IMG/VR virus record: IMGVR_UViG_3300027985_001729
Location: 1-64,000 of that record
Strand: one strand, 5' to 3'
DNA length: 64,000 nt
Origin: a virus
Shown: one piece after another, positions 703 through 11,208 of the stretch
Position numbering within the stretch: position 1 is the stretch's first letter
How the letters are laid out: each line of letters begins with the position of its first letter
Position numbers and translations under genes: made by a program
The notes under the pieces: generated by a model
Databases searched by the model: none
Told to the model about the DNA's origin: nothing
The model's input: the letters and a program-made list of their open reading frames with translations, nothing else

Positions 703-1157
703 GGCCCACCGTTCACGAAAAGCGCCTGCGCGAGCTGGGCATCATGCACCCAGGTTCGACAGGATCGCGCCTGTCCCACATCGACACCCCCATCGCGGAT
801 GTCCTCGCCTACGGCTGGGCGGACGACGACGATCCCGCATGGGGAGCCGTCGAAGAGGTGCGCGTGGTGCTGCTCGGCCTTTCCGAAGCCAGCGGGAACG
901 AGAGCAGCATGCTTGACCGTACCCTTCGCACCTGCGCACGCCGCCTCAAGGCTGCTCACGCCCTTGCCCTCCGCATCTCGGACCCCTACCGCGAGGAGGG
1001 CATCAAGCTGGCGGCCGAGATGCGCGCCACGGCTCCCAGCCGCTACGAAGGGCCCGAGAGCGCTCCTGAGCCTGACGACGTGGCGCAGGAGACACAGCCG
1101 ACGCCGCGCTCCACGCCCAAGGAAGCCACGCCACCCCAGCGCGGCAAGAAGAAGTAG
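699..1157 (+). CDS. Hypothetical protein
   Basis: Coupled ORF of 152 aa followed by a terminator-like hairpin. Confidence 0.55.
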   Translation: MRPTVHEKRLRELGIMHPGSTGSRLSHIDTPIADVLAYGWADDDDPAWGAVEEVRVVLLGLSEASGNESSMLDRTLRTCARRLKAAHALALRISDPYREEGIKLAAEMRATAPSRYEGPESAPEPDDVAQETQPTPRSTPKEATPPQRGKKK

Positions 1158-1182
1158 CTCCCGCCTTCCTGCCCGCATCTCT

Positions 1183-1226
1183 GCCCGTCGCTCGCCGTCC
1201 AGGTGGGTGGCGGGCTTCTTTCTTTC
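1183..1226 (+). terminator. Rho-independent terminator
   Basis: GCCCGTCGCTCGCC-gtcca-GGTGGGTGGCGGGC stem (with G-U pairs) followed by TTCTTTCTTT. Confidence 0.6.
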
Positions 1227-1253
1227 ATCCTGCGACATCGCTTCACTGGACTA

Positions 1254-2075
1254 CTACGTGTCTATCAAGTCTTTCATGCCGCTTCGCCCGGTATTGCGCA
1301 CTCGATCCACAAATGCTGCGCGTCTTTGCGGGTTGGCTATATCCACAACATCATCCACGAATTGGTACAAGTCGCGTTCGATCTGCTCTCTGGATGATGT
1401 TGTGCCGCCGACAAGCATGTAGGCAAGCAGTTTCACCTTTTCTGTTAGGCGCTGCTCCCTGATCACCATCTTGTATGCGCCAAGAGTCTTGGCAACCTCC
1501 TGAGTATCCGCTTGCCAACTATGTCTTGACGGAACGATTGGCTCCATCAGGAGCAACTTGCTCTCGCCTAAAACATAGTGAGATATTGGGCCGATCGTCC
1601 TTGCCGCAGAAAGAACGCCACCACCTTGCTGTTCAGGGTAGAACGTCTTTCTTACGTATTTGGCGATTCTGAAATTTTCAAAGAACCTATAGCCGTATGT
1701 GGCACGGTTCGGCCCGCGGTAATGTTTGGCCTCATCCTCTTCTGTTACTGTGTCTACGCGCAAACTTGACAGCAAAGAATTTATCCAGGCTGTTTCATTT
1801 GTTACCGCAACGGGCACCTGTTGAGGGTTTCCCAAAATTGCTTGTGGGCCCATACTTTTAGGCAGACTGTCGAAGTCATGCACTTGGGCAAGATCATCCA
1901 GAACCATCTGGACTGTCGCCGCCGCTGCCCGACCACCAAGACAGTGTGGGCCTGGAATATGCTGCATCCTCAAAACAGAAATACCTTCATCCGCCTGTAC
2001 GATGGCAGCGATCGGGATGCGCCCACCAAGGAACGGATCCGGCACAAAATGCACAAGCCTGAATCTTGCGCTCAT
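1254..2075 (-). CDS. DUF3037-like protein (long form)
   Basis: N-terminal FRLVHFVPDPFLGGRIPIAAIV matches the DUF3037 start pattern; coupled to a HipA-like kinase. Confidence 0.65.
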   Translation of the reverse strand: MSARFRLVHFVPDPFLGGRIPIAAIVQADEGISVLRMQHIPGPHCLGGRAAAATVQMVLDDLAQVHDFDSLPKSMGPQAILGNPQQVPVAVTNETAWINSLLSSLRVDTVTEEDEAKHYRGPNRATYGYRFFENFRIAKYVRKTFYPEQQGGGVLSAARTIGPISHYVLGESKLLLMEPIVPSRHSWQADTQEVAKTLGAYKMVIREQRLTEKVKLLAYMLVGGTTSSREQIERDLYQFVDDVVDIANPQRRAAFVDRVRNTGRSGMKDLIDT

Positions 2076-2809
2076 GGCCGCCTCTCAATCAAATTGATGT
2101 AGTCCTTTACGATGCTAGGCGCGTTCATGCATCGAAACATGAGACCATTGGTGATAGATTGGACGTCAGGCTGATTCGCAATTCTGCACGCCTCTTGCGC
2201 GTATTCCGCAAGCGCACGCTTGTTAACGCGCAGCGCTTCGCTTGAACACGCCATTGCGGCATCACGAATCATGTCAACTGGAATGCCTTCGACCAAAGAG
2301 CGAATCGGCGGCGGCTCGATCCCGCGTTTTAATATCGCAGGCTCACCAATCCAGGACCATGAGAGATCGATAGAGAATATGCTCAGCCTGTCAGGCCCAT
2401 CCTCTGGCTTGAGTAGCAAGTTTGCGTCGTGTCGATCGAAATTCCCTATGATCGCGTCTATAGCAACGATTTTTCCTAGATCGTCAGGATTCACGAGGTA
2501 CTGTGCACGCGCTGGCGTCCAATGAACAACCGGCTCGATCACTTCACTCAGCCAAGACGTCGTACCATCCTTTACGTAAATAGCGCTATTCGGAGTGGGG
2601 ACTTCAAGAGCACCAGAAAGCAGCCACCCAAGCGCTTCCGCCAGTAATTCACGACGTTCGTGTGGAACCTTGCTGACCCATCGGCGCCCTTGCTCATCGA
2701 CGGTGTACTCGGCTCCCGTTGCGTTCTCGACGGGCACTGGACCGCTTACTGTAAGCGAATGGACGCTCTCGATCCTATTGGGGAGGAGTTGGGGGGCGAA
2801 CGGCGGCAT
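2072..2809 (-). CDS. HipA-like (HipA_2) Ser/Thr kinase
   Basis: WVSK, LLAEALGWLL..LEVPTP, DAIIGNFDRHDANLL and SIDLS motifs; true start near 2809 inside the 846-aa track ORF. Confidence 0.8.
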   Translation of the reverse strand: MPPFAPQLLPNRIESVHSLTVSGPVPVENATGAEYTVDEQGRRWVSKVPHERRELLAEALGWLLSGALEVPTPNSAIYVKDGTTSWLSEVIEPVVHWTPARAQYLVNPDDLGKIVAIDAIIGNFDRHDANLLLKPEDGPDRLSIFSIDLSWSWIGEPAILKRGIEPPPIRSLVEGIPVDMIRDAAMACSSEALRVNKRALAEYAQEACRIANQPDVQSITNGLMFRCMNAPSIVKDYINLIERRP

Positions 2810-3445
2810 GGCAGCCCAAGCGGGGACATCAGCAGACCGTCCCCAAGCAGGGCCATCGTATAGGACTATCCCTGGACTTGAACCAAATAAGTAGGCCCAA
2901 GACGTACCACCGCGACTTCTCGCCCTAAACCCGACCTCCATGTCTGACCTTGCGTTCAGTATACTTAGATACTGGCGCCGACAAATGCCTAGAATTGTCA
3001 CAGGTGGCCGCGAAAGTCGAGCAAAAGTTCTTGACTTTGTGATGTGTCCGTGCCCGAGACCCATCGACAGAGAGATCCTCAGTGGAGCGATCAATCCGTC
3101 GATGGATCGCTCGGTATCGCACCTTGACCAGCGCGTGCGCCGTGCCCTCTGCCAGCCCCCATACACCGCTCTCGATGCATTGACGGAGCGAGCATCCACG
3201 CATCGATCGACGCCTTTACGCACCCCTTCTGCGCGACGTAGCCCTATGACATCTGCTGTCCCACCTACCACGTTTGCCTTGTAAACAAGGCTTTTCTCGC
3301 ACTTCTGGTGTGGTAGTCTCAGGACATCAAACGAAAGCGCCCCGAAGAGACGGCAATCTCCCGGGGCGCGAGAACCGAGCGGCGGACCGCCCGACCCTGC
3401 AACCCGGAGCATGGTCCTGCCGCGCGAGAAAGGCAAGGGGCGACC

Positions 3446-4507
3446 ATGGCCAACGTGCTCCCGATGGGCACGCGCGTCCGCATCGTCGGCGCGCTGACGG
3501 AGGGCAACAGCATCCGGGCGACGGCGCGTCTGGAGAGCGTCGACAAGAACGCCGTGCTTCGGCTCGCCATCAAGGTAGGCGACGGATGCGAACGGCTCCA
3601 CAACCGCCTTGTGCGTGGCGTCGCGGCCTACGTCGTCCAGTGCGACGAGACGTGGAGTTTCATCTCCAAGAAAGCGGCGCGCTGCGAGCCCGGGAAAGAT
3701 CCCGAAGAGTGGGGAGACGCCTACACGTTCATCGGGCTGTGTTCGCGCTCCAAGCTCGTGATCTCCTACGTGGTCGGGAAGCGTGACGACGCGAGCACGA
3801 CTGCCTTCATCGATGACCTTCGCGCTCGGCTGTGCGTGGTGCCGCACCTCTCGACGGACGGCTTCGGCTGCTACGTGCCCGCCGTTGGCGCTTCCTTCGC
3901 GGGCAGCGGCGTCGATTACGGCCAGGTGGTCAAGCAGTACCGCACTGGCTCGCGCCGCGGTCCTGACCACCGTTACGAGCCTCCGCGTGATCCCTTCATC
4001 ACGAAGACGCCGGTGTTCGGTGTGCCCGACGAGAAGCTCATGAGCACGAGCCACGTGGAGCGCTTCAACCTCACCATGCGGCAGACGGTCGGCCGCACAC
4101 GTAGACTCTGCCTCGCCTTCTCCAAGACGCTGCGCGGGCACCGTGCGGGCGTGGCGCTGGGCATCGCGGCGTACAACTTCTGCCGCATCCACAGCACGAT
4201 CGGCATGACCCCAGCGATGGCCGCGGGGATCACCGACCACCCTTGGACCATCGGCGAGCTGGTCGAGGCTGCGTTGGCAGAGCTGGAAAGCGAGCCCGTG
4301 CCCGCTCCCGAGCCGCAACCGCTCCGCATGCCCGAAGAGCGAGCAACGCGCACCACCCGGGAGCTCCCCAACGGGCGCGGCTTCCTGCGCGTTGTCGAGG
4401 GTGGCCAGTCCTCCCCAAAGCCCTCCGCGCCTACTCATGCGCCCACCCCCTTGCGAGCTGCGCCTCGCCAGCTCTCCCTCTTCGATGGCCTCGACGATGA
4501 CTCTTGA
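3446..4507 (+). CDS. IS1-family DDE transposase
   Basis: N-terminal HTH (EGNSIRATARL), QCDETWSF, STDG, STSHVERFNLTMR..AFSK, YNFCRIH..TPAMAAG. Confidence 0.9.
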   Translation: MANVLPMGTRVRIVGALTEGNSIRATARLESVDKNAVLRLAIKVGDGCERLHNRLVRGVAAYVVQCDETWSFISKKAARCEPGKDPEEWGDAYTFIGLCSRSKLVISYVVGKRDDASTTAFIDDLRARLCVVPHLSTDGFGCYVPAVGASFAGSGVDYGQVVKQYRTGSRRGPDHRYEPPRDPFITKTPVFGVPDEKLMSTSHVERFNLTMRQTVGRTRRLCLAFSKTLRGHRAGVALGIAAYNFCRIHSTIGMTPAMAAGITDHPWTIGELVEAALAELESEPVPAPEPQPLRMPEERATRTTRELPNGRGFLRVVEGGQSSPKPSAPTHAPTPLRAAPRQLSLFDGLDDDS

Positions 4508-4557
4508 CAGCAATCTCCACCCCTGCGCGCTGGTACGTAAACGCACGTCCGCGCCCG

Positions 4558-4613
4558 GGGTGTATGTTTTTGAAAATGAGGGTGTATGCTTTTCGCGAAA
4601 GGCATACACCACC
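4558..4613. repeat. Transposon terminus: two direct repeats GGGTGTATG(T/C)TTTT plus an inverted copy, ending CACCACC
   Basis: Repeats at 4558 and 4580; near-perfect 30-bp palindrome at 4581-4610. Confidence 0.75.
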
Positions 4614-5993
4614 CAGTCCCCTCGCTAGTTGGTATCGATGGTCGTCTCCTTCGCAGGCATTCTTGAGCTCGTCGAGATCGTTCCAAAGCTGAAGACGATA
4701 GTATGCGTCCTCCGTAGGATCGACGAACTTTTGGCCGGTTTCTTCTTCGTAGATCTTGGGTAGCAGGTCCTCGACCTCGCGCTTGTCGACCATCCAGATG
4801 CGTCGGATGGTCTCGAGCTCCTGTTGTGTGATGAGCTCGATGTCGCGCACATGGTCTGGACCATCTTTCCGAATCTCAGTCTGAGCTCGAAGAAGGAGGC
4901 GAAGCCACTCCGCTCGGGCGTGTTGCAGGTATGGTCCGGGGACGACCTTTGTGCCGTTTGCCATCAGGGTGACGTGGCCCTGCATCCGCCTGAAGTCACG
5001 AAGGTGACGGTCTCCGTTCTCGTTCTTGCGGAAGTCGAGGCGATTGCGCAGATCGAGCAGAGGCGCCATCCATTCGTGCTCGTCTTCGTTCTGGATCATG
5101 GCGGTCATCGACTTGTCCTCCTCGACGAGAGTGCAGACCCAGCACCCGAACCGGCTGTTGCCGCAGCTCGGGGTCGAGGTGTCGACGACGAGAGGGCACT
5201 CGTTGTCATCGCTTGCAGCGCGATACATCGCCCGGAGCATGTGGTTGTCCCAACCCCACGGGTTCTTGACCTGGCTCAAGAAGAGCCACACGTCGTCGCT
5301 CGTCCAGTCTTCGATGGGGCTGTAGACGAGCGCGTTGCCACCTAGCGCTGCGTTCGGCGACAGGCGCTCGCGGACGCGCTCCGCCTCGAGCTTCTCCATT
5401 CGCTTGCGCCTCACGACGCTCTCGGCCTTCCTTGTCCCGAGCACGAGGATCGACCCCCCAGACGTGTCGGTGGTCTCTGTGATGAACTTGTTCGACGGAT
5501 CGATCTTGAGGCGCTCCGTGCACCACCTGAACTTCTGACGTGGCGCCGCATACCCGCGCCCGATGAGGTTCACCCAGAAGGTGTTCGTTGGGTCAGGTGT
5601 GAGGCGATGTGGCTGGATCGGGAGGCCCTGTGCATCGGCCTGCTCGCGCATCCTCTCGAGGCTCTTCTCCGCCCATCTGGCGACGACAGGGTTCTCGACG
5701 AGCGTGTCCGTGCTGATGACGTGGATAGGCTTCGTTCGGCGATCGTGTGGCATCGATTGGATGGCCATCCAGACGAGCTGCAACGTCGCGCTCGAGTCCT
5801 TCCCGCCCGAGTACCCAACGATCCACGGCATGTCGTCGCTCGCGTAGAGAACCTGGATCTCCTCAAGAATCTCCTTGATGATCCATGGGTTGTCGGCGAT
5901 CGACAGACGCTTCGGTGCCTCCGGCTTCTTCGACACATGGTCCACGAACAACGGGAGCGACACGGGCTCTCGGCGACTCTTGGCGCTCATCAC
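4614..5993 (-). pseudogene. dndC: DndC-like PAPS-reductase-family sulfurtransferase, 3'-truncated by the IS end
   Basis: PWIVGYSGGKDS, ISTDTLVENP, FWVNLIGRGY, FRWCTERLKIDP, ECPLVVDTSTPSCGNSRFGCWVCT, RDFRR, PGPY; homology stops at YQLARGL|GG at the element end. Confidence 0.88.
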
Positions 5994-6187
5994 AACACCC
6001 CGTCGATGACCATCTGCCGGTCCTGGAAGTTTTTAGCGCGGCAAGTAATCTTGTTGAGCTTGTGGATCATGTGCCCACGCTCCTCCATCGCATACTCGAC
6101 ACAGTTCGCGCAGTTTTTGTGGCCCCGCGGGCGCCCTGGACCTGGCCGGTTATGGCCTGGCAAAGGAGGTCTCCTGCGAGCTCCGTC
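5990..6187 (-). pseudogene. C-terminal fragment of the TGT/DpdA-like (DUF7221-like) gene
   Basis: DGARRRPPLPGH...HKNCANCVEYA resembles the family C-terminus; its stop overlaps the dndC start. Confidence 0.7.
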
Positions 6188-6563
6188 GCGGAGCTTCATG
6201 TCTTCGACGAATCTGAGACTTCAGATGCTCAAAATGAGCCTCCGGATCATGTGTGCGCGATGACTGAATCGGAGACCAATACAACGATGCGCCAAGTCCC
6301 TCACGCACAGGCACAAGTTGCTTGAGGCCGAACATATAGCCTCTTTTTTCCGCCTCTCGCCCGCATTTGGCGGCTGCACGAATCTTCGCGCTCACTGTTC
6401 GCTTGATGATGTCGCGCATCGAAGCATCACAGAAGGACAAATGAGAGAACGATGTGGCATGACGAAGATTTTGCCCGTCCCAATGCAAAAGTCCAAGTGT
6501 CACACGATCTCCAGAAATGTGTGACACGATTTTTTGCAGGAATCTAAACTCAACCTGCTTCAT
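6150..6563 (-). CDS. Second DUF3037-like protein, probably truncated
   Basis: FRFLQKIVSHISGDRVTLGLL N-terminus; lies directly after a HipA-like remnant; low GC. Confidence 0.5.
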   Translation of the reverse strand: MKQVEFRFLQKIVSHISGDRVTLGLLHWDGQNLRHATSFSHLSFCDASMRDIIKRTVSAKIRAAAKCGREAEKRGYMFGLKQLVPVREGLGASLYWSPIQSSRTHDPEAHFEHLKSQIRRRHEAPRRSSQETSFARP

Positions 6564-7038
6564 GGGACTTCCTCGCCTTTTTGTGTGGCCCAATCAAATC
6601 TGCGGCGTTACGAACAATCTGTTGCGCGCACTCTCTGCGACATTTTAGAAAATCTACGAATTTATGCTTATGCGGGTTCAGTTCATCTGGCCACCCGGAT
6701 GCAGCCGTATCAATTTCGCCATCCGAGACTTTCTCAAGGCGGGCAGCGATCTCTTCCCAGTTCGAGATTTCTGCATTGCGTGACAACGCATTATACATGA
6801 TATGGTGGCGAAAGCTCGCGGCCGCATTGATTACAGTCTGTTGCGCTAGATCAGAACCGCTAACTCCACGTCGATCAATCCCAACGAAGGCCGATCCATG
6901 GTCAAGCGCAACAAGGTGATCGTGAAACCAAACCGCATTGGGATTTTCGGTTCGACGGTCGTCGTGCCTAATGTATGCATCCAGCGCAAACAGTGCGACT
7001 CCCCACTTTTGTGTGGCCGCCTTGCCTTGAACCCCTTT
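6550..7038 (-). pseudogene. Decayed HipA-like kinase
   Basis: Frame upstream of the 6550-6798 ORF reads LFALDAYIRHDDRRTENPN..VALDHGSAF; in-frame TGA at 7039-7041 and no intact N-lobe. Confidence 0.75.
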
Positions 7039-7244
7039 TCAAGTGTAGATGCCAGCGATGCAACAGGACGGTAAGCCATCGAAGTATGGGTAACCCAGTT
7101 GGTCACAAGTGCAAGCATGGAGAAAAATGCCGCAAAGGCATCCCGCCAATGAAGGCAGGTTGTTTCTTGTGTAGTAGCATGCGCTGGGTGGTCTTCATAG
7201 GCGACGCCGGGGACCATTGAGCAAGCGGTCAAACCACAATCAAT

Positions 7245-7288
7245 GACTGCGGTCATTTGGAGTCGACTGCGGTAATTACCGCACCACC
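7245..7288. repeat. Second transposon-like terminus: GACTGCGGT(C/A)ATT x2 plus palindrome TGCGGTAATTACCGCA, ending CACCACC
   Basis: Direct repeats at 7245 and 7265; same architecture and orientation as 4558-4613. Confidence 0.7.
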
Positions 7289-7955
7289 CAACTCTGGCCC
7301 ATCCTTGAAGGACGGGGATCCAGTTGATGTCTGGGGCGAGCCGACGCAACGCGACGAAATTCTCGATGGTGCGCCGCTGGTGCTCGGCGACCGACATGCC
7401 TGTCCCATGGAATATGACCTCTGCGCCGTCGCCGAACCGCTCCGCCTCGCGCACGCTCGCGGCGAGAACTGGACCCGCCTCACGAGCCCACGCGAGCCAT
7501 CTTTGCAGGTCGATACGAGGCGGGCGTTTGCGGGGGCTTCGGCATATCCGGCATAGCCCTGCTCGGTCCAGCTTGCCCTTGCACGCTGCATGCGGGCACG
7601 ACGCCTGCTTGACGAGTCCGTGGATGACCTGCGGCTCGCACATCCAATCCTGTGGCGCGGCCCAGAGCATGCGCCCGATGGCGTGCTTGTATCGGCGGAC
7701 CTCCTCGATGTAATCGGCGACATCGACGGTCCACCGACCGTAGAGTTGAAGCTCTGTGAACCCGCCCGAGTCGAGCGCCCATGGCACTACCGCCACGGGC
7801 AGGCTCTTCATTGTGTGCAGCGTGCGCCTCGAGATGAACAGAGGAACGGTCGCATCGCGTAGCCACCCTGGCTTGTGTGTTCCAAGGAAGAAGCGATCAC
7901 CCCAGCATGATGTCGGGTTGACCTGTGCTCCGGCAATGTCGACCGTTTCTCTCAT
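7289..7955 (-). pseudogene. N-terminal part of a TGT/DpdA-like (DUF7221-like) deazaguanine DNA-modification-type protein
   Basis: FFLGTHKPGWL, PLFISRRTL, WALDSGGFTEL, WAAPQDWMCEP, SVAEHQRRTIEN, IPVLQGW, then homology ends at the element terminus. Confidence 0.75.
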
Positions 7956-8105
7956 CAGCTTCGTTTCTTTTTGGCCAGCTTGAACGCGCGACGCGACGAT
8001 CCATCGGCAACGACAACCTGGGCGACGCGATAGTCCTTCTTGTCGGAGCCTATTTTAGGATTTTCCTGCGCTTAACATTGAGGATGCGCACCTTTGCGCA
8101 TAAAG

Positions 8106-9074
8106 TCAACCCATGTCATGGGGCGATGCGTAACTCGTCACGACAAGTTCTCGGCGTGTGCCACGTGACTCAGCTTTGCGCGAGATGGTCGTTGGGGCAT
8201 CGATTTCGTGGATGGTCCACCGCCCGAAGAGGGCTCGGACGCGGTCTGTGTCGCCGTTGCTCATGACCCATGGGACGCCTCTACGGTCGAGCTCGAGGCA
8301 CACATCCTTGAGCCGTTCGATGTCTGGTCGTTGCACCTCGCGATCGAATAGTCCGACCTGCTCACTACCACCACGGAACCCACCCGCTTGATAGCCGGAC
8401 CATGTGCCGTCGTATGGAGGGTCGAGGTACACGAAGTCGCCTTTTTTGGCTAGCATGGCAGCCTGCTCGAAGTCGAGATGTCGGACCTCGGCAAGCTCCA
8501 GTGCCTTCGAGCAGGACCTGAGAAGGGCTGCGTCGCAGATGTTCGGGGCCTTGGTCCACTTCCCCCAGCTCGCATTGAACCGTCCTCGCGAGTCGACGCG
8601 ATGCAACCCGTTGAAGCAGAGCTTGTGCAGGAAGATGAACGATGCCCCCACCTTGACGATTGGCGCGTCCTTTCGATCGTTGTACGAAGCCCGCACCTCG
8701 TAGTACATATCCTCGGCCGCACGAGGATCTCCGGCGATGAGCATGACCATCTTCGAGCTCATCTCACCGAGTGTGCCAATGAGATCGTCGACATGATCTC
8801 GGACCGATAGGTAGGAGGCGATGAGGCCATGGTCGGTGTCGGAGAGAGCGACACGCAGCCCGCGCGGTAGCGCCCATCTATAGGTGATCGCTCCTGCGCC
8901 AGCGAATGGCTCCATGTAGGTGCCAGCGATGGCATCCGATGGGAAGTGCTTGATGAGCTCTTCGCCGAGCTTCCACTTCCCACCCGGCCATTTGATGAAC
9001 GGCCGGGCGACGGAGACGAACCCGACTTCGCCATCCGCGTCCTCGATAGTCGCTTCCGTCGCCTCGGTCGTCAT
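8106..9074 (-). CDS. Dam-like (D12 class) DNA adenine methyltransferase
   Basis: PFIKWPGGK, EPFAGAGA, CFNGL.R, FVYLDPPY. Confidence 0.92.
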   Translation of the reverse strand: MTTEATEATIEDADGEVGFVSVARPFIKWPGGKWKLGEELIKHFPSDAIAGTYMEPFAGAGAITYRWALPRGLRVALSDTDHGLIASYLSVRDHVDDLIGTLGEMSSKMVMLIAGDPRAAEDMYYEVRASYNDRKDAPIVKVGASFIFLHKLCFNGLHRVDSRGRFNASWGKWTKAPNICDAALLRSCSKALELAEVRHLDFEQAAMLAKKGDFVYLDPPYDGTWSGYQAGGFRGGSEQVGLFDREVQRPDIERLKDVCLELDRRGVPWVMSNGDTDRVRALFGRWTIHEIDAPTTISRKAESRGTRRELVVTSYASPHDMG

Positions 9075-9076
9075 GA

Positions 9077-11125
9077 TCAGCCCTTGGCCTTTGTTGATCG
9101 CTTCCGCCCGCGGCCCTTGGCAGGTTCTGCCTTCTCCTCCGATTCGGAAGACTTGCCCTGATGGACGTCGAGTTGTCGAGGATCCGTCTCCCCGAACCTC
9201 CAGAGCAGATCGCCAGTGTTGTCGGGGAGTCGCCCTCGGCTCACGATTTCCTCATCCACGAGCCATCCGATGGCCGACTCGAGGAAGCTCGCGCACGGGC
9301 CCACGGAGAAGTCCTCGCCTGTCTCGTTCTTCAGATCGGAAGCGAGGTCCGAGACCCGAAGACCAACCTCTCCCGCCTTCGACACGCGGTCGAGCACCTG
9401 CGCTCGGATCCCGTAGCTGTAGATGCCAGACTTCATGTCGATGAGCCCGGTGTTCACAGCGGAAGCCACCGCTGCGGAGACCATGGTCTTGACGGAAGGG
9501 GTCGGGTTGGTGATCGACGCGACGTCGCACGTCGCCTGCACGATCGCTTCGCGCGACAGTCCTTCCCCACCGCTCAAAATCGCCGCCCGGACGACGAACG
9601 GACGGAGCCCCTTCGCGGAGAGCTCCACGCTCACCTTGGGCTCCGGCGATGGCTTTCCCTGCTCCGCTTCCTGTTCGGCGACTGGTTCGGCGACTGGTTG
9701 ACCCTCTTCATCGTCGGGCGTGGTCGTTTCGGATTCCGTTTTCGGCGTTGGCGTGGCCGAGGCAGCATCGGCGAATGCCTGGGCTGGCGTCATGGACTCA
9801 CGGAGGAGCTCGCGATCGTCCGCGACCGCTCGTACCACGCGCACGGGTCCATAGGTGGTTGTGACGATCACGGCATAGGCGTCGACCTCGTAGGTCCTCT
9901 CGTCGCCGTGACGCAGGCTCTGGAGCGCACGCTTGCGCTCTTCGAGCTCGGAGATGCGGGACTTCGCGTCCTTTTCGGTGGCACCCGCCGAGAGCTTGGC
10001 CCCGTCGATGCGCGCCCTGTGCTCCTTGATTTCGTCCTCGATCTTCGCGACCTCGACGAACATTCTCGCGAGCGCATGGTCGTCGATCTTCTCGGTCACG
10101 ATGTGTTGGATCACCTGACGTTGAGGCTTCGGCGCTGGCACCAGAGGGGCCACAGCGTCGTGAAAGAGATGACCGATGCCCTTGTTGTCGAGCAGGCGCC
10201 GAAGCGCGTTGAGGTGTGCGTCCGCCTGAAGCCTCGCCTTGCGCTCGTCCTCGTAGCGTTCCGTCGCCTTCCGTTCGAACTCCGTACGGTCCGCCGCTGC
10301 CTTGGTCTCAGCCTCGAGCCGGTTCACGTCGTAGAGCGTTGTTGCCCCGGGAACGGTTGGCGTCACGAGCGCCTTCGCACCCGTGGTGAGTATTTCGAAG
10401 CGGTTCGAAGCCACGGAGAAGGCGCTGGACTTCTCCTCGAGCCACGTCCCCTCTCGTTCGTCTTCATCATCGCCATCGTCTGTCCTTCGATGGATTTCCA
10501 GCGCCGCTGTTCTCTCGAAAAGGATCCCAGCTTCGGCGAGCGCCTTGAGGTCCATGGCCACCACATCCACGGGAAGCTCCACGCTGAACCCGGCAGGCAC
10601 CATCGGCTTTTTCCCTGAAAGGATGTCGACCACCTCCTCCGCGAAGACGGCAGCGTTCGGTGCGTCGGCTGTTGCACAGATAACTGCCGCGAGGATCGAT
10701 GTCCTGCGCGCGACGATCTTCGACGGGGTGTCGAGCTCGGCACGAAGTTCGGCCGTCGCCTCCCAACGAGGAGGCGCGTCCTTCCCGTCGCCCGGGAGCT
10801 TGCGCGCGCGCGGCGGATCCATCGCCGCGTACTTGTCGAGCTCTGCCTCGATGGGCCCTCCAGCTACGTAGGGCCCTGGCCTCGCGTTCACGCCCTCCTG
10901 GATCTCCTCCAAGGTCACTGGCCCCGTGGCCCCGACGAGCTCGAGCGCGACATCTTCCGGCAGCATGGACCTCTTCTCATCGCTGACGGTCGTTTCATGT
11001 CCCGCATCGGCAACCGGCTCCGTCGCTGTTGCGGCCGCGCGCGCCCACTCGTCGCGGACGTTGGACGCCTTTTCGCCGCCCATCTTGCTCAAGTCCATGG
11101 CGTTATTCCGCCCACCTGTGTCCAT
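9077..11125 (-). CDS. Large phage hypothetical protein with coiled-coil and possible winged-helix segments
   Basis: Long ORF with high-GC codon pattern, 2 bp upstream of the MTase; start at 11125 or 11098. Confidence 0.65.
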   Translation of the reverse strand: MDTGGRNNAMDLSKMGGEKASNVRDEWARAAATATEPVADAGHETTVSDEKRSMLPEDVALELVGATGPVTLEEIQEGVNARPGPYVAGGPIEAELDKYAAMDPPRARKLPGDGKDAPPRWEATAELRAELDTPSKIVARRTSILAAVICATADAPNAAVFAEEVVDILSGKKPMVPAGFSVELPVDVVAMDLKALAEAGILFERTAALEIHRRTDDGDDEDEREGTWLEEKSSAFSVASNRFEILTTGAKALVTPTVPGATTLYDVNRLEAETKAAADRTEFERKATERYEDERKARLQADAHLNALRRLLDNKGIGHLFHDAVAPLVPAPKPQRQVIQHIVTEKIDDHALARMFVEVAKIEDEIKEHRARIDGAKLSAGATEKDAKSRISELEERKRALQSLRHGDERTYEVDAYAVIVTTTYGPVRVVRAVADDRELLRESMTPAQAFADAASATPTPKTESETTTPDDEEGQPVAEPVAEQEAEQGKPSPEPKVSVELSAKGLRPFVVRAAILSGGEGLSREAIVQATCDVASITNPTPSVKTMVSAAVASAVNTGLIDMKSGIYSYGIRAQVLDRVSKAGEVGLRVSDLASDLKNETGEDFSVGPCASFLESAIGWLVDEEIVSRGRLPDNTGDLLWRFGETDPRQLDVHQGKSSESEEKAEPAKGRGRKRSTKAKG

Positions 11126-11208
11126 AAGTCTCCCTCGCCCGCCCACGCGGATGCCACCAAGGCGCCGACCAAGACGGGAAATCGTCGTGAGCCTATGCAC
11201 GGCGCATG

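What the first reader, a model, noticed from the sequence alone, without database searches (positions are those of the whole stretch)
1254..7288. Two related cargo transposons, each carrying a HipA-kinase/DUF3037 pair, each disrupting a DNA-modification gene
Seen: both modification genes lose homology exactly at a 5'-GGTGGTG terminus (minus strand, 4613 and 7288). To the left of each terminus lies a low-GC HipA-like kinase plus DUF3037-like pair, intact at 1254-2809 and decayed at 6150-7038. The two kinases are highly divergent, so this is not a recent duplication. Inference: an IS1-derived transposon family that carries a kinase toxin/defence module. Hitting both hypermodification genes suggests either target preference or selection to disarm the prophage's anti-restriction system.
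Basis: partly seen in the sequence, partly recalled or inferred. Interest (0 to 1): 0.78.

Follow-up and report, generated by a model that had tools for sequence, protein, structure and literature searches.

The report
Kinase defence cassettes beside IS1 ends
In a complete 75-kb phage genome, two DNA-modification genes (dpdA, dndC) are broken at look-alike insertion-sequence ends, and beside each break sits a kinase-toxin/DUF3037 anti-phage cassette of a known kind; the cassettes look like neighbours of the insertion sequence, not its cargo.

Summary
dndC stops matching its family at 4614. dpdA stops matching at about 7290-7296. Each break abuts GGTGGTG on the minus strand. A low-GC HipA-like kinase plus DUF3037-like gene pair lies left of each break: intact at 1254-2809, and at 6150-7198 with a pseudogene kinase.

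The pairs belong to the validated HipAD/DS-6/PDC-M66 kinase-toxin/antitoxin defence type, which this scan has met before on other DNA. The transposase is IS1-family and looks intact. The two termini share a rare layout of tip, palindrome and repeat, so they are real element-type ends.

Four results argue against cargo status for cassette 1:
- The genome is circular and holds no dndC 3' remnant, no target duplication and no matching left end.
- The insertion sequence is best bounded at 3413-4613.
- 88 bp of backbone with an orphan terminator separate it from cassette 1 (1159-3324), which is skipped in a coexisting variant.
- 19 related kinase-pair loci and 5 related transposase loci never combine the two.

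Cassette 2 replaces 83 dpdA codons and lies just inside a transposase-less end, so how it arrived stays open. Verdict: a known defence kind in a new divergent subfamily, an ordinary insertion sequence and decaying genes, with one real puzzle, the second end.

The parts
1159..3324 (.). Cassette 1: a low-GC (0.54), self-contained indel unit holding the kinase/DUF3037-like operon, a 500-bp upstream spacer and flanking + strand terminators
   Evidence: GC content. One Logan unitig spans 1189-3295. One contig joins 1158 to 3325, skipping 2166 bp.
1183..1215 (+). Intrinsic terminator (14-bp stem plus T-run) closing the + strand backbone operon. It contains the GGTGGGTGG at 1202-1210.
1254..2075 (-). 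Long DUF3037-like partner (273 aa, P0003), the presumed antitoxin. It has two domains; the C-terminal one resembles a PD-(D/E)xK nuclease fold.
2072..2809 (-). HipA-like kinase 1 (245 aa, P0126), with catalytic loop GNFDRHDAN and the motif SID
3276..3291 (+). Terminator-like hairpin with a T-run at the right edge of cassette 1
3325..3412 (.). Backbone intergenic remnant. It holds an orphan minus-strand terminator (3352-3338), probably the original terminator of the dam-dpdA-dndC operon.
3413..4613 (+). Proposed IS1-family insertion sequence (1201 bp). Tips are GGTCCTG and GGTGGTG. No target duplication.
3446..4507 (+). IS1-family DDE transposase (353 aa, P0004). The D, D and E residues are conserved, and it has a lineage-specific C-terminal tail.
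4558..4613 (-). Terminus 1: GGTGGTG tip, 30-nt near-palindrome (4610-4581) and a third arm copy 22 nt further in
   Evidence: A second copy of 4572-4614 in another context ends at 4614.
4614..5993 (-). dndC, 3'-truncated after codon 460
5990..6199 (-). ORF holding the dpdA 3' remnant (the CxxC...H end). Its stop overlaps the dndC start.
6150..6563 (-). Short DUF3037-like ORF (137 aa), still open
6553..7198 (-). Kinase 2 pseudogene. The C-terminal half (7038-6553) has the loop LDAYIRHDDRRTEN and the motif LDHG. The N-terminal half is out of frame.
7240..7288 (-). Terminus 2: GGTGGTG tip, 16-nt perfect palindrome and a third arm copy 20 nt further in. No transposase.
7290..7955 (-). dpdA 5' part (222 codons). 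83 profile positions are missing between it and the 3' remnant.
8106..9074 (-). Dam-type N6-adenine methyltransferase, the intact first gene of the modification operon (context)

Best explanation
This is the decaying dam-dpdA-dndC accessory operon of a complete, circular 75-kb phage genome. It converges on a + strand backbone operon.

Three separate things now sit in it.

(1) A 1.2-kb IS1-family insertion sequence (about 3413-4613) with an apparently intact DDE transposase. Its GGTGGTG tip abuts dndC codon 460. There is no target duplication, and the dndC 3' end is gone from the genome. The operon's own terminator survives on the other side of the insertion sequence (3352-3338). The simplest history is therefore insertion followed by an adjacent deletion of the kind IS1 is known to produce. 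This is inferred.

(2) Cassette 1 (1159-3324), a low-GC, terminator-flanked unit. It encodes a HipA-like Ser/Thr kinase toxin and, translationally coupled to it, a long DUF3037-like protein that is predicted to bind over the kinase catalytic region and neutralise it. This is the HipAD/DS-6/PDC-M66 type of abortive-infection defence, here carried by a phage and presumably excluding other phages. The function is inferred by analogy. Cassette 1 is separated from the insertion sequence by 88 bp of backbone and is skipped in a coexisting variant. It therefore behaves as an independent accessory insert of the kind phage biologists call a moron, not as cargo.

(3) Cassette 2 (about 6150-7288), of the same functional type but unrelated at sequence level. 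Its kinase is a pseudogene and its short DUF3037 ORF is open. It replaces 83 codons of dpdA. It begins with a second terminus of the same rare layout but has no transposase. This is most simply the solo end of a second IS1-type element. Whether cassette 2 rode in with that element is open.
For: Genome structure:
- The record is circular, with an 80-bp terminal repeat.

dndC:
- It is truncated at 4614.
- No remnant turned up when 11 homologue tails were searched by tblastn.

dpdA:
- It is split, with 83 profile positions missing.

Transposase and insertion-sequence bounds:
- NF033558 gives E 1.4e-13 and PF03400 gives 24.3 bits against a cut-off of 24.1.
- The D, D and E residues are conserved against five homologues.
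- The IS1 family has ends GGnnnTG, 8-9 bp duplications and a size of 740-1180 bp (PMC10425158, Table 8). 3413 is the only GGnnnTG within 500 nt upstream of the transposase start.
- Variant unitigs end at 3415 and 3440, and the body unitig starts at 3399. This fits sequence contexts converging near 3411-3413.
- A 43-nt copy of 4572-4614 in another context stops at 4614.
- An orphan minus-strand terminator sits at 3352-3338.

Cassette 1 as a unit:
- It forms the unitig 1189-3295, and a contig joins 1158 to 3325.
- GC steps are 0.68 / 0.54 / 0.665 across left flank, cassette and insertion sequence.

Conservation of the pair:
- The kinase family has 10 homologues of about 245 aa.
- The partner family has 358 clusters.
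- The kinase lies directly upstream of the partner in 17 of 19 analysed Myxococcota loci, and also in L015, L030 and L031. None of these holds the transposase.
- Five transposase homologues with 6-kb flanks hold no kinase pair.
- In L015 the pair sits beside Wadjet and SUKH genes.

Relation to DUF3037:
- The ESM Atlas gives scores of 0.95 and 0.94 to PF11236 clusters.

Binding:
- The complex model scores 0.76 against a best control of 0.02. That mark was reached by 58 of 80 solved complexes and 2 of 110 mismatched pairs. The runs agree in at least 94% of contacts and the partner's pLDDT is at least 85. The contacts lie on kinase residues 92-105 and 128-141, beside the catalytic loop.

Function in relatives:
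- Published work shows that the kinase is needed for defence and that deleting the DUF3037 gene is toxic (PMC12548924, PMC13092281).

Termini:
- Their layout occurs at only 6 loci in the genome.
- It is absent upstream of 16 related chromosomal cassettes, so it is not part of the cassette itself.
Against: - The inverted repeat between 3413 and 4613 is weak (local alignment z = 1.8, p = 0.07). A rival left end at 3307 also scores: 8 of the first 12 and 30 of 70 positions match.
- The joint contig has only 20 nt on its shorter side. It comes from Logan unitigs of what is probably the source sample filed twice. Its depth (16.5) does not add up with that of the flanks.
- Both cassettes lie on the inner side of a GGTGGTG terminus, in the same orientation. 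The chance that the two termini share both the tip and the layout is very small. A common mechanism that includes the cassettes therefore cannot be dismissed.
- Neither partner protein matches PF11236 by HMM, and none of 72 family members does. Profile-profile comparison with canonical DUF3037 proteins was not significant.
- No close relative of this phage was found that would show the undisturbed locus.
Confidence: 0.55

Rival explanations
1. Two members of an IS1-derived family of cargo transposons each carry a kinase/DUF3037 module between structured ends. Element 1 keeps its transposase. Element 2 is a non-autonomous or partly deleted derivative.
For: - Both breaks have an identical 7-nt tip plus the same rare palindrome-and-repeat layout.
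- GGTGGTG fits the IS1 end consensus GGnnnTG.
- Both cassettes lie inside the terminus, in the same orientation.
- Cassette 2 starts only 90 nt from the tip.
- From my own memory of ISfinder, not checked here: one IS1 subgroup reaches 4.6 kb, which implies passenger genes.
Against: - No left end, no target duplication and no dndC remnant exist in the circular genome.
- 88 bp of backbone with an orphan terminator lie between the transposase unit and cassette 1, and a variant lacks cassette 1 alone.
- GC content is 0.665 for the insertion sequence against 0.54 for the cassette.
- There is no co-occurrence in 19 kinase-pair loci or 5 transposase loci.
- Terminus 2 resembles neither end of the insertion sequence beyond the 7 nt.
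Confidence: 0.2
2. The GGTGGTG-plus-palindrome structures are not transposon ends. They are small repeated palindromic units that act as terminators or recombination hot spots, similar to REP elements. The cassettes would then have arrived by illegitimate or homologous recombination at such units.
For: - The 30-nt palindrome at 4610-4581 is followed by a T-run on the minus strand, directly after dndC'.
- A 43-nt copy occurs in another context with unrelated sequence on both sides.
- No significant terminal inverted repeat was found.
- The 1158/3325 joint shows no duplication or microhomology.
Against: - An intact IS1-family transposase sits 106 nt inside terminus 1, and its tip fits that family's consensus.
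- The palindromes differ in sequence, unlike members of one REP family.
- No further copies exist in this genome.
Confidence: 0.15
3. Assembly chimera: the low-GC blocks were joined wrongly into the phage contig.
For: The record is a metagenome assembly, and the unitig graph branches at the edges of cassette 1.
Against: - Two runs hold 99% of the sampled words of 1000-8200.
- Depth is even across flank, cassette and insertion sequence (16-20).
- The dpdA halves flank cassette 2 in the correct order and orientation.
- A 7-nt repeat cannot cause a wrong join at k = 31.
Confidence: 0.03

Closest known systems
HipAD / DS-6 / PADLOC candidate PDC-M66, the HipA-like kinase + DUF3037 anti-phage system (PMC13092281; PMC12548924, the Retron-Sda1 operon)
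   Same: - A two-gene operon with the kinase first and the partner overlapping it.
- The HipA-type catalytic loop GNxDRHxxN.
- A partner with a DUF3037-like N-terminal domain and a nuclease-fold C-terminal domain (DS-6B is described as DUF3037 + DUF1829).
- Predicted tight kinase-partner binding.
- Patchy distribution, beside other defence genes.
- Carried on phage or prophage DNA.
   Different: - Neither protein reaches the Pfam HipA_C, HipA_2 or DUF3037 models or the PDC-M66 models. There is only a weak PDC-M03A hit and a PI3_PI4_kinase hit below threshold.
- The kinase is short (245 aa).
- Function is untested.
- The second copy has a dead kinase.
IS1 family insertion sequences
   Same: - A DDE transposase that matches the IS1 models.
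- GGnnnTG tips.
- A size of about 1.2 kb.
- Association with an adjacent deletion.
   Different: - A single ORF with no frameshift.
- An extra 70-aa C-terminal tail, shared with one viral relative (L032).
- Poor terminal inverted repeats.
- A palindrome-plus-repeat subterminal structure.
- No target duplication here.
Phage morons (self-contained accessory cassettes with their own signals and a different base composition)
   Same: Cassette 1 has lower GC content than its surroundings, flanking terminators and an intergenic position between convergent operons. It is present or absent among co-occurring variants.
   Different: No consensus promoter was called on its coding strand. Cassette 2 sits inside a gene rather than between genes.
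Dnd phosphorothioation (DndC) and Dpd/phage 7-deazaguanine (DpdA) DNA modification
   Same: DndC is 60-65% identical to bacterial DndC proteins. DpdA is 50-62% identical to phage DpdA proteins.
   Different: Both genes are broken. The searches found no dndD, dndE or queC in the phage (the dndE search also missed its controls). Adjacency of dpdA and dndC was not seen in 13 related viral loci.

Membership tests
IS1 family insertion sequence | DDE transposase matching IS1 models | tested here: met
   NF033558 E 1.4e-13 (51 bits, below NCBI's cut-off of 100). PF03400 24.3 bits against a cut-off of 24.1. The D, D and E residues are conserved in an alignment with five homologues.
IS1 family insertion sequence | Ends GGnnnTG | tested here: met
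   The right tip is GGTGGTG at 4613. The left candidate is GGTCCTG at 3413, the only such site within 500 nt upstream of the start codon. Consensus taken from PMC10425158, Table 8.
IS1 family insertion sequence | Terminal inverted repeats | tested here: inconclusive
   Gapped similarity only: the tip plus CCnnCGCGAnAAAGGCA. Local alignment z = 1.76, p = 0.07.
IS1 family insertion sequence | 8-9 bp target duplication | tested here: not met
   Flanks are CCGGAGCAT and CAGTCCCCT. This fits a later adjacent deletion.
HipAD / DS-6 / PDC-M66 | HipA-family kinase | tested here: inconclusive
   - The catalytic loop and the ID motif are invariant in the family.
- PI3_PI4_kinase scores E 1.5e-4, below its cut-off.
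- There is no HipA_C or HipA_2 hit.
- Distant relatives L009 and L016 carry HipA_C, and L008 carries HipA_2.
HipAD / DS-6 / PDC-M66 | DUF3037 (PF11236) partner | tested here: inconclusive
   - No Pfam hit for either ORF or for 72 family members.
- hhalign was not significant.
- ESM Atlas features score 0.95 and 0.94 to PF11236 clusters.
HipAD / DS-6 / PDC-M66 | Conserved adjacent gene pair | tested here: met
   4-nt overlap here. The kinase lies directly upstream in 17 of 19 analysed Myxococcota loci, and also in L015, L030 and L031.
HipAD / DS-6 / PDC-M66 | The partner binds the kinase | tested here: met
   A model only. Score 0.76 against a best control of 0.02; the mark was reached by 58 of 80 solved complexes and 2 of 110 mismatched pairs.
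HipAD / DS-6 / PDC-M66 | PADLOC PDC-M66 models | tested here: not met
   Only a weak PDC-M03A hit for the kinase (E 9e-4). Nothing for the partner.
HipAD / DS-6 / PDC-M66 | Kinase toxicity, neutralisation and phage defence | not testable with these tools
   Needs expression and plaque assays.
Cargo-carrying transposon | Cargo lies between two matching ends with a target duplication | tested here: not met
   No left end or duplication. Backbone DNA lies between the insertion sequence and cassette 1.
Cargo-carrying transposon | Transposase and cargo travel together in relatives | tested here: not met
   0 of 19 kinase-pair loci and 0 of 5 transposase loci.
DndC | TIGR03183 over its cut-off | tested here: met
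   608 bits against a cut-off of 290, but only positions 2-420 of 447 are matched.
DpdA | PF23859 over its cut-off, with the gene whole | tested here: not met
   143.6 bits, but the gene is split and 83 profile positions are missing.

The most novel reading that the evidence does not exclude
IS1-type elements with structured ends (GGTGGTG tip, palindrome, repeat) form a family that can carry or capture HipAD-type kinase toxin/antitoxin cassettes and deliver them into phage DNA-modification genes. A defence cassette would then spread while knocking out a phage's anti-restriction genes. Cassette 2 with its transposase-less end would be a non-autonomous member.
Probability: 0.13. Interest if true: 0.7.

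Novelty: new member of a known kind. Interest (0 to 1): 0.4.

Why it matters
This adds a divergent subfamily to the recently validated HipA-kinase/DUF3037 defence type. The subfamily has about 10 kinase clusters and 358 partner clusters, and current Pfam and PADLOC models miss it. Here it is carried by a phage, and one copy appears to be present or absent within a single community.

The locus also shows how insertion-sequence ends and accessory cassettes erode a phage's DNA-modification operon. The second structured end, which has no transposase, is a concrete and testable puzzle about how such cassettes move.

Tried and rejected

Searches that found no useful relative:
- Viral-contig scans found nothing for dndC, terminus 1, the joined form, the 20-nt stretch 3325-3344 or the flanking ORF.
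- The only close transposase relative (L032, 67%) is 5'-truncated and its ends do not align.
- Transposase homologues in Myxococcota are at most 47% identical and show no clear inverted repeats.
- Isolated phages hold no match to either DUF3037-like protein, and plasmids hold no match to terminus 1.
- The word-based search for kinase 2 found nothing.

Comparisons that were not significant:
- Profile comparison of the new partner family, and of the 137-aa ORF, with canonical DUF3037 proteins.
- Foldseek against PDB gave only weak PD-(D/E)xK nuclease hits, with E at or above 0.009.

Readings considered and dropped:
- GGTGGGTGG at 1202 as a left end. It is a terminator stem, and its 70-nt identity to the right end is average.
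- 3307 as the left end. It falls inside the segment skipped by the joint.
- 3345 as a boundary. The variant sequence after 3344 is a diverged homologue, not unrelated DNA.
- The termini as kinase-operon operators. They are absent upstream of 16 related cassettes.

Coverage gap: no Logan contigs were laid on 4615-8200, so nothing can be said about variants there.

Full report
**Setting.** The window is bases 1-64000 of a 75,303-bp IMG/VR virus record. The record has an 80-bp direct terminal repeat, so it is a complete circular assembly. Two public runs, probably the source data filed twice, hold 99% of the sampled words of 1000-8200. They come from a hydrothermal-vent metagenome. Because the genome is circular, 'upstream of the window' could be searched in full.

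**Anatomy, read on the minus strand.**
- A Dam-type methyltransferase lies at 9074-8106.
- dpdA starts at 7955. It matches PF23859 and phage DpdA proteins only through residue 222 at 7290.
- A low-GC block follows, from 7288 to about 6150.
- Next comes a 69-codon ORF (6199-5990). Its end matches the C-terminal CxxC...H part of DpdA: phrog_1279 positions 221-251, KiSi gp44 residues 221-246, and positions 220-257 of 262 in a profile of 13 viral DpdA proteins plus KiSi gp44. dpdA is therefore split. 83 profile positions, which include the catalytic core, have been replaced by about 1.1 kb.
- The remnant's stop overlaps the start of dndC (5993-4614). This protein is 60-65% identical to bacterial DndC proteins. 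It matches TIGR03183 positions 2-420 of 447 and stops aligning at LARGL, where homologues read LARELL and run on for 50-70 more residues.
- tblastn with eleven homologue tails found no remnant anywhere in the genome.
- Both breaks abut GGTGGTG, at 4613-4607 and 7288-7282.

**The insertion sequence.**
- On the + strand, 3446-4507 encodes a 353-aa protein. It matches the IS1 transposase models (NF033558 E 1.4e-13; PF03400 just over its cut-off). The D, D and E residues are conserved against five homologues.
- A 70-aa C-terminal tail is shared with the one close relative, a 67% identical viral copy in L032.
- The IS1 family is listed with ends GGnnnTG, 8-9 bp duplications and a size of 740-1180 bp (PMC10425158, Table 8). 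The right tip at 4613 fits.
- On the left, the only GGnnnTG within 500 nt upstream of the start codon is GGTCCTG at 3413. That gives a 1201-bp element.
- The two ends share the tip and a CGCGA-AAAGGCA block, but the similarity is weak (z = 1.8).
- Logan unitigs give independent support. Variant unitigs end at 3415 and 3440 and the body unitig begins at 3399, which fits several sequence contexts converging near 3411-3413. A low-depth contig holds a 43-nt copy of 4572-4614, with 3 differences, that stops at 4614.
- The flanks are not duplicated.
- Between the insertion sequence and cassette 1 lies an orphan minus-strand terminator (3352-3338). No minus-strand gene now lies directly upstream of it. 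I read it as the original terminator of the modification operon.
- The insertion sequence thus stands where the dndC 3' end used to be. Insertion followed by an adjacent deletion explains both the missing duplication and the missing remnant. This is inferred, not shown.

**Cassette 1.**
- The kinase (2809-2072, 245 aa) has about ten homologues of the same length. Invariant features are the loop GNxDRHxxN and the motif ID, which I recognise as the HipA-type catalytic loop.
- HMM support is weak. PI3_PI4_kinase scores E 1.5e-4, PADLOC PDC-M03A scores E 9e-4, and more distant relatives carry HipA_C or HipA_2.
- The partner (2075-1254, 273 aa) overlaps the kinase by 4 nt. It has 358 representative clusters.
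- No Pfam family matches the partner or any of 72 family members.
- The ESM Atlas places it with DUF3037 clusters (0.95; 29 of 30 hits).
- Its AlphaFold model (pLDDT 92.9) has two domains. The second gives only weak PD-(D/E)xK nuclease matches. This recalls DS-6B, which is described as DUF3037 + DUF1829 (PMC13092281).
- The kinase lies directly upstream of the partner in 17 of 19 analysed Myxococcota loci, and also in L015, L030 and L031. In L015 the pair sits beside Wadjet and SUKH genes.
- The search found the partner family in 19 of 401 genomes. That tally includes the unpublished genome G163.
- The complex model supports binding. It scores 0.76 against a best control of 0.02. That mark was reached by 58 of 80 solved complexes and 2 of 110 mismatched pairs. 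The runs agree in at least 94% of contacts and the partner's pLDDT is at least 85. The contacts lie beside the catalytic loop.
- Published work shows that in such pairs the kinase is needed for defence, deleting the DUF3037 gene is toxic, and the system works on its own (PMC12548924; PMC13092281).

**Is cassette 1 cargo?** The evidence says no.
- It is a distinct block in base composition. GC is 0.54, against 0.665 for the insertion sequence and 0.68 for the left flank.
- It carries + strand terminators at both edges. The one at 1183-1215 contains the GGTGGGTGG that could have been mistaken for a left end.
- It forms one unitig (1189-3295). A contig joins 1158 to 3325, skipping exactly 1159-3324 with no shared letters at the joint. 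The sequence after 3344 in that variant is a diverged homologue of the reference. The variant therefore keeps the transposase side but lacks the cassette.
- Caveats: the shorter side of the joint is 20 nt, the evidence is unitigs from one data set, and the depths do not add up.
- None of the 19 related kinase-pair loci holds the transposase, and none of five transposase loci with 6-kb flanks holds the pair.

**Cassette 2.**
- The frame 7038-6553 reads LDAYIRHDDRRTEN...LDHG. It aligns in register with the kinase family from the catalytic loop to the C-terminus (hmmsearch E 3e-4 in a database of three sequences; hhalign E 6e-5, probability 65%).
- Pairwise BLASTP against kinase 1 is not significant.
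- The frame has no start codon before 6798, and the N-terminal half lies in other frames. The invariant His is Arg. It is a pseudogene.
- The following 137-aa ORF (6563-6150) is open. The ESM Atlas places it with short DUF3037 clusters (0.94).
- Its last 30 residues align weakly with the C-terminus of canonical 132-136-aa DUF3037 proteins. It may therefore be nearly full length.

**The termini.**
- Each terminus has the same 7-nt tip, a perfect palindrome starting inside the tip, and a third copy of the palindrome arm 20-22 nt further in. The palindromes themselves differ in sequence.
- Only six loci on both strands of the genome have this layout. Sharing a 7-mer alone has p = 0.003-0.009. Chance is therefore not a credible explanation.
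- The layout is absent upstream of 16 related chromosomal cassettes, so it is not the cassette's own operator.
- Terminus 2 resembles neither end of the insertion sequence beyond the tip.
- I read terminus 2 as the solo end of a second IS1-type element. Because cassette 2 starts 90 nt inside it, a ride-along cannot be excluded for that cassette.

**Context.**
- Searches of the phage found no queC or dndD. The dndE search also found nothing, but it found nothing in its control genomes either, so it shows little.
- dpdA relatives in 13 viral loci have no dndC beside them.
- Whether the two genes ever formed a working system here is unknown. 'Selection to disarm' remains speculation.

**Verdict.** The cassettes are new, divergent members of a known defence type, which this scan has met several times on other DNA. 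The insertion sequence and the broken genes are ordinary. The analogous second terminus is the one unexplained element.

Noticed in passing
window 7620-7415 (DpdA residues 113-180): This DpdA carries a Cys-rich insertion of about 68 aa (CPHAACKGK...CRIC) that KiSi gp44 and 13 viral DpdA relatives lack. It may be an extra zinc module.
   Followed up: partly
window 3124-3050, minus strand: A third locus with the 'palindrome plus third arm copy' layout (GAGCGATC...GATCGCTC...GATCTCTC, nested with CCATCGAC/GTCGATGG). It lies in the 500-bp spacer upstream of kinase 1 and may be an operator of that operon.
   Followed up: no
window 6150-6563: The phage keeps an open short DUF3037-like ORF next to a dead kinase. 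An orphan antitoxin of this kind could neutralise a host HipAD-type kinase and so act as counter-defence. This is untested.
   Followed up: no
L033-L044 (Myxococcales genomes): A canonical short DUF3037 gene (132-136 aa, PF11236 at about 160 bits) is present, mostly as a single copy, in 144 of 301 sampled genomes of the order (the tally includes the unpublished G163). It is distinct from the long partner family found here.
   Followed up: partly
L032:4001-4897 and window 4290-4507: The phage-borne transposase lineage has a conserved C-terminal extension (RELPNGRG-LRVV...QLSLF) that chromosomal Myxococcota homologues lack.
   Followed up: partly
L015:1306-7657: In a Myxococcaceae MAG the same kinase/partner pair lies directly after JetC- and JetD-like Wadjet genes and a SUKH/SMI1 immunity-type gene. 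This is a defence-island context.
   Followed up: partly
L009:7833-9565 and L016:7701-9352: Distant HipA_C kinases are paired with an overlapping HIRAN-domain protein instead of a DUF3037 protein. This is another kinase-plus-DNA-binding-partner layout.
   Followed up: no
window 9077-11200, minus strand: A 707-aa ORF directly upstream of dam has no Pfam, NCBIfam, PHROG or PADLOC match.
   Followed up: no
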